From: Oculatellaceae cyanobacterium bins.114
GTDB lineage: Bacteria; Cyanobacteriota; Cyanobacteriia; Elainellales; Elainellaceae
DNA length: 41,098 nt
NCBI GenBank assembly: GCA_033764315.1
Contig: JANRJA010000076.1
Location: 1 to 41,098 of the forward strand
Direction of reading: 5' to 3'
Both the position numbers and the translations under genes were made by a program. Under the pieces are notes generated by a model. That model was not told the DNA's origin. It saw only the letters and a program-made list of their open reading frames with translations, and made no database searches. Within the stretch, counting starts at the first letter, position 1. The number at the start of each line of letters is the position of its first letter. Below, piece by piece: positions 16,912-41,098 of this stretch.

Positions 16912-17691
<780 letters not shown>

Positions 17692-17750
17692 TCAGTGCAA
17701 AGTTGTCCACAATTAAATATTGATCGCTCGATGCAGAAGGTTTCAGCATT

Positions 17751-17930
17751 ATGGTGAGCAGTTTCCTAGCGGTCAAAGTGCCTCACGGGTTAACCGTCAC
17801 TGAGAAGCAATTCCGGCGGTTTATCGCGGCAAATCCTGATTTGCGGATGGAGCGCACAGCCCAAGGAAAGCTCATCGTTATGTCACCGACTGGAAGTGAA
17901 GACGGCAATCGCAACGCTGAATTAAGTGAA
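17751..17930 (+). pseudogene. Truncated Uma2 (DUF820) family endonuclease, N-terminal ~60 codons only
   Basis: QFRRFIAANPDLRMERTAQGKLIVMSPTGSEDGNRNAELS is a typical Uma2 N-terminus. Similarity stops at the attC site and the PD-(D/E)xK core is absent. Confidence 0.8.
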
Positions 17931-17934
17931 ACGA

Positions 17935-18021
17935 TGCTAACGGCTCAAATCAGCGGCGGTAAGTACCCTCGAACTCAGCACCAGCAGTTCTCACCCGTCC
18001 GCTGCATTTGAATTGTTGGGC
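17935..18021 (-). other. attC recombination site (87 bp)
   Basis: Minus strand: R'' GCCCAAC, 6 nt, L'' AAT[G]CAGC, GG[A]CGG ... CCGCC, L' GCTGATT, 6 nt, R' GTTAGCA. Confidence 0.82.
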
Positions 18022-18036
18022 TGTGAAGTGTATAAC
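18008..18036 (+). promoter_or_regulatory. Putative sigma70 promoter for the TA operon, with its -35 inside attC
   Basis: TTGAAT-N17-TATAAC. Confidence 0.5.
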
Positions 18037-18082
18037 AGAATATGTAGTACAAACTAGCAGGCTGCACAAAAGAGGATTTAAG

Positions 18083-18403
18083 TTGAAACAACAGTTGAAG
18101 ATTCAGCTTCCCCAGCCAGAGCTTGCAGCCTTCTGCCAAAAGTGGAAGATTAAAGAAATGTCCTTCTTTGGCTCTGTTTTACGGGAGGATTTTCGCTCAG
18201 ATAGTGATATTGATATCATAGTAAACTTTGAGGGCAATTCAACTTGGGGAATTTTAGAGCTTGTTCGCATGAAACGCGAATTAAAAACGCTGCTAGGACG
18301 TGAAGTTGACTTAATGACCAAAAAATCAATTGAGCAAAGCCACAATTGGATTCGTCGGCAAGAAATTTTAGGAACTGCTCAAATTGTTTATGTCGCGGGA
18401 TAA
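18083..18403 (+). CDS. mntA: Minimal nucleotidyltransferase (MNT) antitoxin
   Basis: FGSVLREDFRSDSDID (GS-x10-DxD). Likely TTG start at 18083 after AGAGGA. Confidence 0.9.
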   Translation: MKQQLKIQLPQPELAAFCQKWKIKEMSFFGSVLREDFRSDSDIDIIVNFEGNSTWGILELVRMKRELKTLLGREVDLMTKKSIEQSHNWIRRQEILGTAQIVYVAG

Positions 18404-18731
18404 TGCGTCACTACTTGATGTTGTTCAGGCAGGGCAATTAATTCTTCAATTTGCTCAGGGACTCAGCCGTGATCAACTAGCATCGGATTTACGAACACAA
18501 TCTGCAATTCTTTATCAAATTGCAATTATGGGAGAGGCAACCAAACAATTGTCTCGTCAATTCCGGGAACAACACCCAGAAGCCCCTTGGGATGATATCG
18601 CAGGGATGCGAGATATTGTTGCCCATCAATATGATCGAATCGATTTAGACATTGTTTGGCAAGTCATCCAACGAAATATTCCTGAACTGTTGAATGTATT
18701 AGTAACTCTACTACCAACTCAAGACACCTAA
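18390..18731 (+). CDS. hepT: HEPN (DUF86) RNase toxin
   Basis: MRDIVAHQY (Rx4HxY), IMGEA and PW motifs; overlaps the MNT gene. Confidence 0.9.
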   Translation: MSRDNASLLDVVQAGQLILQFAQGLSRDQLASDLRTQSAILYQIAIMGEATKQLSRQFREQHPEAPWDDIAGMRDIVAHQYDRIDLDIVWQVIQRNIPELLNVLVTLLPTQDT

Positions 18732-18793
18732 ACGATCGCTTTATGTACTCAACAGAAGCGATTTGAGTACTGTCCAAACTGAGAACTTAAGCA

Positions 18794-18879
18794 GCCCAAC
18801 GTTCCAAATTAGCGGCTGCTAGCATCTCCAACTCAGCACAGGTGTCTCTCGACAGTCCGCTGCATTTGGGTTGTTAGCC
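18794..18879 (-). other. attC recombination site (86 bp)
   Basis: Minus strand: R'' GGCTAAC, 6 nt, L'' AAT[G]CAGC, GG[A]CTG ... CAGCC, L' GCTAATT, 6 nt, R' GTTGGGC. Confidence 0.82.
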
Positions 18880-19312
18880 AGCGCTCAACGGCGATCGCCC
18901 CCACCCATCTCTCCCAACCTCTCACCTCCCACAACCACCGCCATTGTACTCAACCTTTCACTGAACACAGAAAATATTTCGGGTCTTTTAACGTTGGCAG
19001 AAAGCTTTGCTATGTCTAACCTCTAGTTTGGGGGCGATCGCTCTCCCACCGTCATCCTTCAAACCACGGTTCGGAAAGCATTAACTCAACGGCGATCGCC
19101 CCCTGACACCTGTTGGGACACTCAACTGTGACCCAGATTGTTGATGAACTCAACCTCTCGCTGGAGGCGATAACGCTGTGAGACTGGACACTGGGGCGAT
19201 TGCCTCGATGAACTCAACCTCTCGCTTGGGGGGCGATCGCACACACACCGATACCGTTGAAGTACCGGGATCTTCAACCTCTCAACCACTCGGTAACCCT
19301 ATTGCGAAAGCG
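18880..19312. repeat. Gene-less cassette body, copy 2
   Basis: Colinear with 19399-19799; no convincing ORF. Confidence 0.75.
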
Positions 19313-19398
19313 GGCTAACGGTAAAGCTCAACGGCTGCAAGCAATCTTCGCCACGCCACTAGCACTCACCAACAGTCCGTTGCAGCGCAGTGTTAGCC
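19313..19398 (-). other. attC recombination site (86 bp)
   Basis: Minus strand: R'' GGCTAAC, 5 nt, L'' GCT[G]CAAC, GG[A]CTG ... CAGCC, L' GTTGAGC, 6 nt, R' GTTAGCC. Canonical 5/6 spacing. Confidence 0.85.
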
Positions 19399-19799
19399 TG
19401 CGCTGTTGGGCGATCGCCCCCACCCATCTCTCCCAACCTTCCACCTCCCACAACCACCGCCATTCTACTCAACCTTTCGCTCAAAACAGAAAATCTTTCG
19501 GCACGCTTAACATTGAGGCAAAACCTCGAAGGACTACACCTCTGTTTGGGGGGCGATCGCCAACCACACCAACACTTTTCAACCACGGTTCGCAAAGCGT
19601 TAACTCAACGGCGATCGCCCCCAGACACCTTTTGGAACTACGAACTCTGATCAATATCGTTGTTGAACTCAACCTCTCACTTACGGCGATCGCATTCTGA
19701 GTCTTGTCACTTTGAGCGTTAACTCTTGCTGACTCAAACTCTCGCTTTGGGGGGCGATCGCACACCCCACAGAACACTCAGAAACACCGAAACGTAGCG
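19399..19799. repeat. Gene-less cassette body, copy 1
   Basis: Colinear with 18880-19312. Confidence 0.75.
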
Positions 19800-19822
19800 G
19801 GCTAACTATTGTTTAGCCTGCT
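19796..19822 (-). other. attI-like tyrosine recombinase core site
   Basis: Inverted arms AGCGGGCTAA / TTAGCCTGCT around a 7-bp spacer. Minus strand reads GGCTAAACAATAG|TTAGCC. Confidence 0.62.
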
Positions 19823-19836
19823 TTCTTATCCTTTAG

Positions 19837-20057
19837 TCTGTCTAACATCTCTAATTTGGGTGATTAGACAGATCCAAAGTTGAATATCTCCTGCTCTACG
19901 GGAGTTAGGCTGACAAGTTCTCAGCCTAACTCCCCAAAATGGGGTGTTATACAGATCAAGATTGGGCTATCTCCCTTAAGAGCTAGATAACTATCCTAAA
20001 TAGGTGTTTAGCCAGCTCTTGCTCTGCATAATAGCCTTGCTACGAGGTGTTATACAG
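19837..20057. repeat. Array of about 5 short palindromic units (TAA-N17/18-TTAKNCAG-like)
   Basis: TTA boxes at 19864, 19905, 19947, 20008 and 20050. Perfect 14-bp inverted repeat at 19900-19934. Confidence 0.65.
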
Positions 20058-20163
20058 GTAGCTTCAGCAAATCTTCAGCGTCAATGCTAAGGGGGGCAGC
20101 GTGCTCAATTCTCACCTTTTTACCCTTATATACATCCACTTGCCAAAGCACTAATTCAACTTT

Positions 20164-20244
20164 GGTAGTCCTCTAAAAGTAATGATTTTTGAGTCAGGAT
20201 ATGCTGTGCAGAGCGCGGCATATCCTGACTTGTTTAGGACTACC
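20164..20244. mobile_element. 81-bp MITE (family A)
   Basis: TIR GGTAGTCCT/AGGACTACC; 7-bp flanking direct repeat CAACTTT (20157-20163, 20245-20251); internal hairpin; second copy at 40894. Confidence 0.8.
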
Positions 20245-20363
20245 CAACTTTCATCAGCCATAATCTTAAGATTTGGTGTTAGAAGGTACGATCGCCTCGT
20301 TGGTTCCCAAAGGGGTAATCGCCCCTGATAATAGATCAACAGCGACGTAGCAGAACAAGGCGC

Positions 20364-21452
20364 ATGGGTAGTACATTTGGGCAATTATTTCGAGTGACCA
20401 CCTTTGGTGAATCTCATGGAGGTGGGGTGGGGGTTGTGATTGACGGGTGCCCACCGCGATTAGAGATTTCCATTGACGAGATTCAGTTTGAACTCGATCG
20501 CCGTCGTCCGGGGCAGAGCAAAATCACCACCCCCCGCAAAGAAGAAGACAAGTGCGAGATTCTCTCTGGCATCTTTGAGGGCAAAACGTTAGGAACGCCG
20601 ATCGCCCTCTTGGTACGCAACAAAGATGCGCGATCGCAAGACTACGACGAGATGGCACAAAAATATCGTCCTTCTCACGCCGATGCGACCTACGATGCCA
20701 AGTATGGCATTCGCAACTGGCAGGGGGGTGGGCGTTCTTCAGCACGGGAGACGATTGGACGAGTTGCCGCAGGGGCGATCGCCAAAAAGATTCTCAAACA
20801 GGTCGCTGGGGTTGAGATCATCGGCTATGTTAAGCGCATCAAGGATTTAGAAGGTGTGGTTGACCCCAACATCGTCACGTTGGAGCAAGTTGAGAGCAAC
20901 ATTGTTCGCTGCCCCGATAAGGAGTGTGCCGATCGCATGATTGAGTTGATTGAGCAAATTGGGCGATCGGGCGATTCGGTCGGTGGTGTTGTGGAGTGTG
21001 TTGCGCGATCGGTTCCAAAAGGGTTAGGAGAGCCTGTGTTTGACAAACTAGAGGCAGACTTGGCAAAAGGGATGATGTCTCTGCCTGCTAGTAAAGGCTT
21101 TGAGATTGGCTCTGGTTTTGCAGGAACGCTGATGACTGGAATTGAGCACAACGATGAGTTTTATATCGATGAGCAGGGTGAGATTCGCACTGTGACTAAC
21201 CGCTCTGGCGGTATTCAGGGAGGAATTGCTAACGGTGAAAACATTATTTTGCGGGTGGCGTTTAAGCCGACTGCGACAATTCGCAAAGAACAACGCACTG
21301 TGACCAAAGAAGGCGAAGAAACCGTTTTAGCGGCCAAAGGACGGCACGATCCTTGTGTCCTTCCAAGAGCAGTGCCGATGGTGGAGTCGATGGTGGCACT
21401 GGTGTTGTGCGACCACTTGTTGCGACATCATGGCCAATGCGAGTTGTTTTAA
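20364..21452 (+). CDS. aroC: Chorismate synthase
   Basis: [31 protein letters not shown]. Confidence 0.98.
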
Positions 21453-40893: not shown

Positions 40894-40957
40894 GGTAGTC
40901 CTCTAAAAGTAACGATTTTTGAGTAAGGATATGCCGTGCGGAGCGTGACATATCCTT
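40894..40957. mobile_element. MITE family A, second copy, interrupted
   Basis: Near-identical to 20164-20227. Confidence 0.75.
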
Positions 40958-41098
40958 AGTTCGGTTTAAGAGCCTAGCGAATAAATTCGCGGCTATCAGA
41001 GCGAAGTTCGCCTTCGCGAACTACAGAAAATCAAGGGTTGAGTGAACCGACGCAGGTCGGTTTTGCTCCTGTAGTTGCGGTTTCAACCGCCAAAATCC
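40958..41098. mobile_element. MITE family B, second copy (inverted, runs off the window edge)
   Basis: Reverse-complement match to 22128-22265. Confidence 0.78.

What the first reader, a model, noticed from the sequence alone, without database searches (positions are those of the whole stretch)
18880..19799. Two homologous gene-less cassettes made of internal repeats and HIP1 sites
Seen: two ~400-430 bp colinear bodies with conserved blocks (CCCCCACCCATCTCTCCCAACCT; AACCACGGTTCGxAAAGCxTTAACTCAACGGCGATCGCCCC). They have a recurring ACTCAACCTYTC motif (GTTGAGT on the minus strand, fitting GTTRRRY), 4-5 HIP1 sites each and strong C/A strand skew. Several differences fall at every third base (TTVRKALTQRRSPPDT is kept), yet no frame is cleanly open in both copies. 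Inference: a cassette family acting as RNA, promoter/spacer or protein-binding DNA, or a selfish non-coding cassette. They occupy the two positions next to attI.
Basis: partly seen in the sequence, partly recalled or inferred. Interest (0 to 1): 0.7.

Follow-up and report, generated by a model that had tools for sequence, protein, structure and literature searches.

The report
Gene-less integron cassettes in a cyanobacterium
Two neighbouring 0.4-kb stretches are mobile integron cassettes that carry no gene, only a conserved scaffold of cyanobacterial HIP1 palindromes and a promoter-like box, and they belong to a cassette family shared by related cyanobacteria whose role is still unproven.

Summary
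Bodies A (18881-19311) and B (19400-19802) are 79% identical and lie 519 bp apart. Each follows an attC hairpin. B abuts a true attI remnant whose integrase gene is deleted.

They belong to an ORF-less cassette family. I found 15 full-length copies and 18 fragments in Leptolyngbyaceae-type cyanobacteria and metagenomes. All 15 full-length copies abut at least one attC. One copy (body plus attC) is 90% identical to a copy in a genome whose aroC is only 76% identical to this genome's, and its neighbours there are unrelated. So the cassettes move as units.

There is no shared reading frame, no period-3 signal, no Pfam or Rfam match and no covarying RNA fold.

What is conserved:
- an internal duplication of a ~200-nt unit
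- four invariant G/C-extended HIP1 sites in alternating orientation at fixed spacing (about 143, 58 and 141 nt)
- a TAnAAT box on the array's sense strand about 65 nt before the cassette's own attC

Best guess (about 0.35): a cassette-borne outward promoter. Main rival (about 0.25): a HIP1-carrying DNA element that promotes its own spread. There are no expression data.

The attI-proximal position holds here and in three other arrays, but fails in four. This is a new variant of a known kind, of moderate interest.

The parts
17934..18022 (+). attC site of the MNT-HepT cassette. The + strand is the recombinogenic 'bottom' strand. This is the last attC of the array.
   Evidence: Model R1 scores it 92 bits on the + strand.
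18008..18731 (+). Third cassette from attI: a nucleotidyltransferase (MNT) and HepT toxin-antitoxin pair, inverted relative to the array.
   Evidence: Pfam NTP_transf_2 (5e-16) and HepT-like (3e-26).
18793..18880 (+). attC site belonging to cassette A.
   Evidence: R1 80.4 bits on the + strand. The hairpin has bulges on the 3' arm.
18881..19311 (-). Body of ORF-less cassette A, second from attI. It consists of two homologous ~200-nt units.
   Evidence: 1-12 stops in all frames. ORFs 18871-19026 (+) and 19122-19289 (-) have no Pfam match.
19312..19399 (+). attC site belonging to cassette B.
   Evidence: R1 86.6 bits on the + strand. 96% identical to the attC of the C183a cassette.
19400..19802 (-). 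Body of ORF-less cassette B, first from attI. About 35 nt shorter than A at the attI end.
   Evidence: ORFs 19257-19700 (+), 19481-19777 (-), 19359-19595 (-) and 19390-19650 (+) have no Pfam match.
18891..18902 (.). Extended HIP1 site 1 of A (octamer followed by a C run). The matching sites are site 2 at 19030-19041 (G run then octamer), site 3 at 19092-19103 and site 4 at 19228-19240. In B the octamers start at 19410, 19553, 19611 and 19754, with an extra HIP1 at 19686.
   Evidence: Positions. The sites are invariant in 14 copies and include the longest invariant run (12 columns; null maximum 9). Spacing is 139-146, 57-58 and 138-143 nt.
18943..18948 (-). -10-like hexamer TACAAT on the array's sense strand in A, pointing through attC 18880-18793. 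B has TAGAAT at 19462-19467.
   Evidence: TAnAAT in 19 of 26 copies and fragments, TAnnnT in 23 of 26. Four of the six positions have 0 changes; position 3 has 5 changes.
18970..18982 (-). Conserved quasi-palindrome (CCGAAAnATTTT on the - strand), 21 nt upstream of the hexamer.
   Evidence: Present in 10 of 14 copies in alignment A4. Its function is inferred only.
19063..19078 (.). The most conserved block outside HIP1 (CCACGGTTCGGAAAGC). It lies in the fixed 58-nt segment between HIP1 sites 2 and 3.
   Evidence: 0-1 changes per column apart from two columns with 3. Its function is unknown.
19797..19822 (+). attI core: the junction GGCTAA|C followed by a short inverted repeat.
   Evidence: It aligns with the attI junction of G045, which lies next to an intI remnant. 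The terminator scan picks it up as a hairpin.
19823..20100 (+). Remnant of the attI-to-intI intergenic region. It holds the attI hairpin motif at 19837-19872 and a 16-nt block at 20062-20077. The intI gene itself is missing.
   Evidence: 75% column identity to G045. Both motifs occur in this genome only at C16/C183, C112, C155 and here. tblastn with IntI finds nothing in the window (best E = 0.10).

Best explanation
**What it is (about 0.9 sure).**
- A and B are the first two cassettes of a chromosomal integron that lies between fabG and aroC. The integron keeps its attI and the upstream region of intI, but the intI gene is lost.
- The array reads on the - strand, from attI at 19797-19822 leftwards. 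The order is B, A, then an inverted MNT-HepT toxin-antitoxin cassette.
- Each cassette is a ~0.43-kb gene-less body plus its own attC. They belong to a family confined, as far as sampled, to Leptolyngbyaceae-type cyanobacteria.
- The genome's one intact integron integrase, on another contig, can presumably excise and reinsert them through the folded + (bottom) strand of the attC sites.

**How it works (inferred, about 0.35).**
- The body acts in cis as DNA, not as a protein or a folded RNA.
- Near its attC-proximal end, on the array's sense strand, it carries a -10-type promoter box (TAnAAT). A conserved quasi-palindrome lies 21 nt upstream. There is no -35 box.
- Transcription would start about 55-60 nt before the cassette's attC and run through it into the next cassette. 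It would give either expression of (or antisense to) the downstream cassette, or a short attC-ended RNA.

**What this does not explain.** The four fixed, extended HIP1 sites are the strongest conserved feature, and the promoter reading does not account for them.
For: **Identity**
- attC model and covariation.
- The orientation rule, attC '+' meaning attI and intI lie to the right, holds at C183 to C16, at C155, at four arrays of G045 and at two of G057.
- attI homology.
- Intact IntI at C16:183-1124, 482 bits against a cut-off of 265.
- The family HMM finds 15 full-length copies, all abutting an attC.
- Cassette C183a (body plus attC) is 90% identical over 525 nt to a copy in G061. The neighbours there are unrelated, and aroC is only 76% identical between the two genomes.

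**Non-coding**
- Stops in all frames.
- No period-3 signal, and gaps mostly not in threes.
- 0 of 6 ORFs match Pfam.

**Constraint**
- 101 invariant columns against 51 expected under a Poisson model.

**Promoter**
- TAnAAT in 19 of 26 copies and TAnnnT in 23 of 26. Position 3 varies freely (5 changes) while four positions never change.
- The same end module, with TAGAAT, sits at the 3' end of a protein-coding cassette on contig C34.
- In the complete integron, the C183a box lies about 300 nt upstream of a co-oriented brnT-brnA pair.
- Precedent: ORF-less cassettes with working promoters, and cassette-borne promoters in large arrays. I read passages of review PMC8876359 (section 2.4.3) and of PMC2945992.
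Against: - There are no transcript data. No public run holds the bodies.
- There is no -35 box, and the sigma-70 consensus scan finds no promoter in the bodies.
- The hexamer lies inside a repeated motif (GGTTGAGT...). Its other two copies in the body read TTCATC, so the -10 likeness could be incidental.
- 3 of 26 copies lack TAnnnT (G045, L042, C251).
- In the window, and in G057, the next cassette downstream is inverted. The transcript would then be antisense.
- The best-conserved features are the four extended HIP1 sites and their fixed spacing. A promoter needs none of them.
Confidence: 0.4

Rival explanations
1. HIP1-scaffold DNA element. On this reading, the selected payload is the set of four G/C-extended HIP1 sites.
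- They may act as 12-13-bp inverted repeats in folded single strands, as protein-binding sites, or as uptake and recombination signals.
- The cassette, and the HIP1-poor array DNA linked to it, would then be taken up and recombined better during natural transformation.
- Incoming single strands could be captured at attI.
- In effect it would be a self-promoting cassette.
For: - HIP1 density is 9.7 per kb in five bodies (21 sites in 2164 nt). It is 0.6 per kb in 33.1 kb of other array DNA and 1.6 per kb genome-wide.
- The 12-nt extended form occurs 291 times in the genome, and 18 of those lie on contigs C55 and C183.
- The four sites are invariant, alternate in orientation and keep their spacing. 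The 57-58-nt spacing holds in 12 of 12 copies where both sites are intact.
- Run lengths shrink together at paired sites in L035 (all four sites) and C223 (sites 3 and 4).
- The cassettes cross genera at higher identity than aroC.
- Literature: methylated HIP1 raises natural transformation, and HIP1 has been proposed as an uptake signal. I read only the abstracts of bioRxiv 10.1101/2024.09.10.611283 and PMC13756078.
Against: - The function of HIP1 is itself unsettled (passages of PMC5861425).
- Uptake would not need fixed spacing, alternating orientation or the G/C runs.
- HIP1 sites are conserved genome-wide for unknown reasons, so their invariance here is not specific evidence.
- The paired sites never vary enough to test pairing. 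The RNAalifold covariation term is about 0.
- Unmatched run-length changes also occur, in L032, G045 and L042.
- Bringing the attC sites closer by folding would matter little: cassette length affected excision only from about 1500 bp (passages of PMC5371416).
Confidence: 0.25
2. Functionless passenger. On this reading these are empty cassettes built by duplication of a repeat. Their similarity reflects recent spread between arrays. The HIP1 sites are kept by the same genome-wide process that keeps HIP1 everywhere.
For: - No ORF, no RNA family and no covarying fold.
- Truncated and mosaic fragments are common: 18 fragment loci, 6 of them without an attC.
- The position in arrays is not fixed.
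- Vibrio non-coding cassettes have been discussed as possibly selfish (passages of PMC1382264).
Against: - Copies only 55-65% identical still share invariant blocks outside HIP1, and nearly constant length and spacing.
- Paralogues within this genome (60-77% identical) are older than several cross-genome pairs (83-93%). The family has therefore persisted through long divergence.
Confidence: 0.2
3. Structured non-coding RNA, or a structured single-stranded DNA element other than the attC, encoded by the body.
For: - The folded single strand is more stable than shuffles: z = -3.2 for the + strand and -2.5 for the - strand, with attC sites included.
- An integron-encoded sRNA is known in Xanthomonas (passage of PMC8876359).
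Against: - Rfam gives nothing at gathering score. The best hit in a body is 18.9 bits against a gathering score of 43.9.
- RNAalifold on 14 copies finds only the invariant HIP1 pairs on either strand. Covariation terms are -0.01 and -0.19 kcal/mol.
- No terminator-like site lies in the bodies.
Confidence: 0.08
4. Decayed protein-coding gene.
For: Long chance ORFs occur on the C-rich strand, up to 147 aa at 19257-19700.
Against: - 1-12 stops in every frame of 9 copies, with the longest ORF in a different frame in each copy.
- The longest interval open in all 14 copies is 137 columns on the + strand and 92 on the - strand, even when any frame is allowed per copy.
- No period-3 signal.
- 0 of 6 ORFs match Pfam.
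- The body is an internal duplication of a 200-nt unit.
Confidence: 0.02
5. A dispersed MITE or satellite that merely landed in integrons, and is not a cassette family.
For: - Each unit is bounded by 12-13-nt inverted repeats about 143 nt apart.
- A few fragments lie outside attC arrays: C251, L013, L008 and L010.
Against: - In this genome, 9 of 12 such inverted pairs with 132-146-nt spacing are the family's own units.
- The HMM finds no full-length copy away from an attC.
- Body and attC travel together.
Confidence: 0.03

Closest known systems
Non-coding (ORF-less) cassettes of Vibrio chromosomal integrons (Boucher et al. 2006, PMC1382264; passages read)
   Same: - attC-bounded and without an ORF.
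- Paralogous within one array.
- Close homologues only in related species, conserved along their whole length and without a codon pattern.
- The authors likewise left open whether they are selfish or useful (promoters).
   Different: - A different phylum and unrelated sequence.
- Here the body is a nested duplication carrying four fixed, extended HIP1 palindromes, a cyanobacterial feature.
- Copy number per genome is low: 5 full-length copies among at least 41 attC sites, against up to 45 in V. vulnificus.
Promoter-containing ORF-less cassettes of oral Treponema integrons, and cassette-borne promoters of large arrays (review PMC8876359 section 2.4.3; PMC2945992; passages read)
   Same: - A gene-less cassette with a sigma-70-like element.
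- It could drive neighbouring cassettes, including from the first array positions.
   Different: - Promoter activity there was measured. Here there is only a conserved -10-like box without a -35.
- The review describes antisense promoters facing intI in Treponema. The box here faces away from attI.
sRNA-Xcc1, an integron-encoded small RNA of Xanthomonas (cited in PMC8876359; passage read)
   Same: A non-coding product from an integron cassette.
   Different: No Rfam match, no conserved fold and no terminator.
CALIN, a cluster of attC sites lacking an integron integrase (Cury et al. 2016, PMC4889954; passages read)
   Same: The window holds three co-oriented attC sites and no intI. The genome encodes IntI elsewhere.
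   Different: A recognisable attI and the intI-upstream region survive. This is a decapitated integron rather than a stray cluster.
HIP1 (GCGATCGC) of cyanobacteria, and DNA-uptake sequences of naturally transformable bacteria
   Same: - Short palindromes, here at 6 times the genome density.
- HIP1 is reported to raise transformation (abstracts read).
- From recall, uptake sequences in other bacteria often occur as inverted pairs.
   Different: No evidence here for uptake. The G/C extension, fixed spacing and cassette setting have not been described in the papers I searched.

Membership tests
Integron gene cassette | Bounded by an attC site: an imperfect hairpin with inverse core sites, paired L boxes and bulged bases on one arm | tested here: met
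   In the alignment of 14 sites, 6 of 16 pairs show compensatory changes and the bulges lie on the 3' arm. Model R1 scores the window sites at 80-92 bits on the + strand. Opposite-strand scores elsewhere are at most 26 bits.
Integron gene cassette | Lies in a co-oriented array that starts at attI next to intI | tested here: met
   attI and the intI-upstream remnant lie at 19797-20100. intI itself is absent from the window but intact on contig C16. In the complete integron (C183 to C16), the first two cassettes are also family members.
Integron gene cassette | Moves as a unit (body plus attC) between contexts | tested here: met
   C183a against G061: 90% over 525 nt, spanning body and attC, with unrelated flanks.
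Integron gene cassette | Excised and inserted by IntI | not testable with these tools
   Needs an excision or insertion assay.
ORF-less / non-coding cassette (definition of Boucher 2006) | No ORF longer than 150 bp, and no protein match | tested here: inconclusive
   Chance ORFs longer than 150 bp exist on the stop-poor C-rich strand. None is conserved and 0 of 6 match Pfam. No BLASTX-type search of a protein database was run.
ORF-less / non-coding cassette (definition of Boucher 2006) | Homologues conserved over their whole length without a synonymous-site pattern | tested here: met
   Alignments of 14-15 full-length copies. Period-3 test P = 0.51.
Promoter-bearing ORF-less cassette | A functional promoter | not testable with these tools
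   Only a conserved TAnAAT box. The consensus scan finds no -35/-10 pair in the bodies. No RNA data.
Known RNA family (Rfam 15) | Match at gathering score | tested here: not met
   No match reaches a gathering score in 17600-20400.
CALIN (Cury 2016) | At least two attC sites and no integron integrase nearby | tested here: met
   Three attC sites. No IntI similarity anywhere in the 41-kb window.
MITE | Many dispersed copies with terminal inverted repeats and target-site duplications | tested here: not met
   The HMM finds copies only in or beside attC arrays, apart from four fragments. No excess of such inverted pairs elsewhere in the genome.
Protein-coding gene or pseudogene | A shared reading frame or codon-position pattern | tested here: not met

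The most novel reading that the evidence does not exclude
The family is a 'signal cassette'. It would be a gene-less integron cassette whose payload is a fixed array of methylatable, extended HIP1 palindromes.
- These would mark otherwise HIP1-poor cassette DNA for uptake and recombination during natural transformation.
- Incoming single strands would fold their attC sites and be captured at attI.
- Integron cassettes would thereby hitch-hike on the cyanobacterial uptake system, and the cassette would promote its own spread between genera.
Probability: 0.15. Interest if true: 0.75.

Novelty: new variant of a known kind. Interest (0 to 1): 0.5.

Why it matters
Gene-less cassettes make up a sizeable share of some integron arrays (6-49% of cassettes in the vibrios tabulated in PMC1382264), and their role is largely untested.

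This family offers a compact test case outside the Proteobacteria:
- about 430 nt long
- a clear conserved scaffold
- copies in a complete genome record of a named strain (Leptothermofonsia sp. ETS-13)
- an intact cognate integrase in the same genome as the window

If the -10 box fires, it shows that mobile promoters exist in cyanobacterial integrons. If the HIP1 scaffold matters, it ties the unexplained HIP1 palindrome to cassette exchange. That would bear on two open questions at once: what HIP1 does, and how cassettes travel between species.

If neither holds, the family is a clean example of a persistent selfish cassette.

Tried and rejected
1. **Expression data.** The look-up of sequencing runs found no run holding even half of the sampled words of 17700-20400 (best share 0.17). 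I laid X17, X19, X20 and X1. Their contigs cover the MNT-HepT cassette and short scraps, but not the bodies. This gives no information on transcription of A or B.
2. **Rfam at a permissive threshold.** Nothing.
3. **RNAalifold on both strands.** Only the invariant HIP1 pairs.
4. **Tandem Repeats Finder.** No rows. The internal repeats are too diverged for it, and were shown instead by HMM.
5. **Positional rule ('the family always sits next to attI').** It holds where the attI end is visible or inferable:
   - window: ranks 1 and 2 of 3
   - C183: ranks 1 and 2 of 5
   - G045: rank 2 of 5
   - G057: rank 2 of 5

   It fails in G029 (rank at least 5 of 5), G005 (at least 4 of 5), G006 (after the last attC) and C223 (its own attC is cut by an IS110-family element). 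Three further cases lie at contig edges and are uninformative. I rejected it as a family rule.
6. **Folding that shortens the distance between attC sites, as an excision aid.** Rejected as weak, because the published length effect starts at about 1500 bp.
7. **Fragment boundaries at HIP1 sites as evidence for HIP1-mediated recombination.** By my hand count, about 16 of 30 boundaries lie near a site, against about one third expected. Local alignments tend to end at conserved blocks anyway, so I did not use this.
8. **Earlier notes of this scan.** None exist for this genome, sequence or topic.
9. **Not done.**
   - A protein-database search with the chance ORFs was not run, because the ORFs are not conserved.
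   - The three paper searches on integrons and HIP1 listed no paper on HIP1-rich or cyanobacterial ORF-less cassettes.
   - Subscription-journal papers and supplements were not seen.
Full report
**Observation.** The two bodies are real and related.
- The repeat finder gives direct repeats of 131 nt (79%) and 125 nt (86%), both 519 bp apart.
- The pairwise alignment is 79% identical per column. blastn of A against B gives E = 3e-75.
- The ACTCAACCTYTC motif occurs 6 times in the bodies, all on the + strand (5 exact, 1 with one mismatch). The whole window has 7 matches at up to one mismatch, against 0.35 expected.
- HIP1 occurs 4 times in A and 5 times in B, against 1.6 per kb in the genome.
- GC skew is -0.13 to -0.30. 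AT skew is small.

**Setting.**
- The window is a whole 41-kb contig of a 6.6-Mb cyanobacterial draft genome.
- Around the finding lie fabG (16936-17691), a Uma2 fragment, an MNT-HepT pair (18008-18731), the two bodies, about 560 nt without a gene, and aroC (20364-21452).
- Three hairpins at 17934-18022, 18793-18880 and 19312-19399 are attC sites. I aligned them with 11 others from this and related genomes. They share a fold in which 6 of 16 pairs show compensatory changes and the bulged bases lie on the 3' arm.
- A covariance model built from that alignment scores them at 80-92 bits on the + strand. It finds at least 41 sites on about 22 contigs of this genome. Only 150 of 1502 candidates were scored, so the true number may be higher.

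**Orientation and attI.**
- The genome has one intact integron integrase, at C16:183-1124 (482 bits; family cut-off 265).
- The first 141 nt of C16 are identical to the end of contig C183. C183 carries five attC sites.
- In that joined locus, attC sites matching the model on a given strand have attI and intI on their 3' side. The same holds at the intI remnant on C155, at four arrays of complete genome G045 and at two arrays of G057.
- From recall, the canonical rule places the extrahelical bases on the recombined strand. On that rule the window's + strand is the 'bottom' strand, and the array reads on the - strand starting at the right.
- The right flank confirms this. Positions 19796-20100 align at 75% column identity with the segment of G045 that runs from its attI junction to an internally deleted intI.
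- Two motifs occur in this genome only at C16/C183, C112, C155 and here: a hairpin at 19837-19872 and a 16-nt block at 20062-20077.
- tblastn with IntI finds nothing in the window (best E = 0.10).
- So this is an integron that has lost its integrase gene. B is cassette 1, A is cassette 2, and the inverted MNT-HepT pair is cassette 3.

**Family.** An HMM built from six copies finds the following.
- In this genome: A, B, two copies at array ranks 1 and 2 on C183, one on C223, and fragments on C21, C34 and C251.
- In the same taxonomic family: DNA matches in 10 of 56 other genomes.
- In genome contigs: a conserved 36-nt pattern hit 15 loci. All 9 cyanobacterial loci match the HMM, and none of the 6 non-cyanobacterial loci does. 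The record titles name Leptolyngbyaceae, Elainellaceae, Synechococcales, one MAG titled only Cyanobacteria, and Leptothermofonsia sp. ETS-13.
- In metagenome contigs: 10 of 12 loci match the HMM.
- Of 15 full-length copies:
  - 9 have an attC on both sides.
  - 2 have an attC on one side and attI on the other.
  - 1 has an attC and a contig end.
  - 3 have an attC on one side only. One of these, on C223, has its own attC cut by an IS110-family element.
- Of 18 fragment loci, 12 abut an attC and 6 do not.
- One fragment, L015, is a single unit lying between two attC sites.

**Mobility and age.**
- Cassette C183a, body plus attC, is 90% identical over 525 nt to a copy in G061. The neighbours there are unrelated.
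- aroC is 74-77% identical between this genome and G061, G057, G045 and G059.
- In a tree of 14 copies, this genome's five copies fall into three clades, each with nearer relatives in other genomes. Paralogues are 60-77% identical (winA and C223, both in clade 1, 85%). Cross-genome pairs reach 83-93%.
- The cassettes therefore either move between genomes, or are held under constraint, or both.

**Not a gene, and not a known or evidently structured RNA.**
- Every frame has 1-12 stops in each of 9 copies. The longest ORF sits in a different frame in different copies.
- Column variability over 14 copies has no period-3 power (P = 0.51; 12 windows all above 0.18). 133 of 166 gap runs are not multiples of three. 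The longest interval open in all copies is 137 columns, on the stop-poor strand. L041 was dropped from this test because it is 98% identical to L042.
- Six ORFs from A and B have no Pfam match.
- Rfam gives nothing.
- RNAalifold on either strand predicts only pairs between the invariant HIP1 sites. Covariation terms are -0.01 and -0.19 kcal/mol.

**Anatomy.**
- Each body is an internal duplication. An HMM of the second ~200-nt unit matches the first unit in 14 of 14 copies (E from 1e-10 to 1e-24) and 0 of 70 shuffled controls.
- Within units, a shorter repeat recurs. It is the motif GATGAACTCAACCTCTCGCT followed by a G run and HIP1 (family D4, 64-nt spacing).
- Four HIP1 octamers extended by 3-5 C or G alternate in orientation. 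Their spacing is 139-146, 57-58 and 138-143 nt (with one 128). The 57-58-nt spacing holds in 12 of 12 copies where both sites are intact.
- Substitutions are unevenly spread. There are 101 invariant columns against 51 expected under a Poisson model. The longest invariant run is 12 columns, against a null maximum of 9. The invariant runs fall on the HIP1 sites, on CACGGYTCGGAAA in the 58-nt segment, and on a hexamer described below.
- HIP1 density is 9.7 per kb in the bodies, but only 0.6 per kb in 33 kb of other array DNA.

**Promoter-like box.**
- On the array's sense strand, about 65 nt before the cassette's own attC, the bodies carry TAnAAT.
- Four of its positions never change, position 3 changes five times, and position 6 changes twice.
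- Counting fragments as well, 19 of 26 copies have TAnAAT and 23 of 26 have TAnnnT. From recall, TAnnnT is the minimal cyanobacterial -10 element.
- A quasi-palindrome lies 21 nt upstream in 10 of 14 copies.
- There is no -35 box, and the consensus scan reports no promoter.
- The hexamer is part of a repeated motif whose other copies are not -10-like.
- On C34 the same end module closes a protein-coding cassette.
- Published ORF-less cassettes with promoters provide a precedent.

**Position.** The family fills ranks 1 and 2 here and on C183, and rank 2 of 5 in both G045 and G057. It is distal in G029, G005, G006 and C223, and lies at uninformative contig edges in G059, G060 and G061.

**Verdict.**
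- The identity is secure. These are two paralogous ORF-less cassettes at the head of an integrase-less integron, members of a mobile and constrained cassette family.
- The function is not shown. I rank the readings as follows:
  - outward promoter: 0.35 within a 0.4 best explanation
  - HIP1-scaffold DNA element: 0.25
  - functionless passenger: 0.2
  - structured RNA: 0.08
  - MITE: 0.03
  - decayed gene: 0.02
- Non-coding cassettes are known from Vibrio, Treponema and Xanthomonas. The cyanobacterial setting, the nested duplication and the fixed extended-HIP1 scaffold are the new elements.

Noticed in passing
window 17936-18804: The MNT-HepT toxin-antitoxin cassette is itself mobile. A 5.7-kb contig of a soil metagenome run (X1) matches from attC to attC with 20 differences and one gap, then diverges on both sides. 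RNA-library contigs from three studies also carry parts of it.
   Followed up: partly
window 20161-20251 (second copy at 40894-40971): A ~85-nt palindromic MITE-like element lies between the attI remnant and aroC. It has on the order of a hundred copies at 75-97% identity across the genome's contigs. It may mark the deletion that removed intI.
   Followed up: no
G000 contig C16, about 15 nt upstream of the intI start (locus L061, about 115-135): A palindrome, AGTACATGGGTACT, sits just upstream of the intact integron integrase gene. From recall it resembles the cyanobacterial LexA box type. This would fit SOS control of intI. Cambray et al. (PMC3108266, passage read) did not assess cyanobacteria because their LexA motif differs.
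   Followed up: no
G000 contigs C16/C183, C112, C155, C44 and the window: The genome holds at least four attI-type regions but only one intact intI. C155 and C44 keep only the first ~38 and ~21 codons. At least 41 attC sites are spread over about 22 contigs. It is a many-array, mostly integrase-less integron landscape.
   Followed up: partly
L053 (G000 contig C223) 1285-2817: An IS110-family transposase gene (1636-2817, - strand) lies next to a family cassette whose attC is cut right after its first core site. This fits an attC-targeting IS110/IS1111-type insertion (the target preference is recalled).
   Followed up: no
C21 fragment, L009/L027, and L042/L041 (at two sites); also C223:2148: A ~24-nt hairpin-forming insert sits inside the centre of HIP1 octamers in several family copies. 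In L042 it is in two of the four sites. Only 2 copies of that version exist in this genome. It may be a tiny element that targets HIP1.
   Followed up: partly
L011 722-922; flanks of the attC sites at C21:21763 and C136:463: Other short C/A-rich, gene-less cassettes carry similar motifs (CGATCGCC cores, ACTCAACC, CAAACCAC) but fall below the family HMM threshold. They suggest a wider superfamily of non-coding cassettes.
   Followed up: no
window 17751-18011: An 86-aa ORF with a weak match to the Uma2 N-terminus (E = 4e-4, below the Pfam cut-off) runs into the last attC. It is probably a truncated cassette gene at the distal end of the array, next to fabG.
   Followed up: no
attC left flanks on C99:1862, C136:463, C251:132 and G045 (L007 about 1350-1410): A subclass of attC sites shares a conserved ~60-nt flank (AAATTGCAGAACTCCCTCAC...CACGGCTTCA) across contigs and genomes. 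I have no explanation for it.
   Followed up: no
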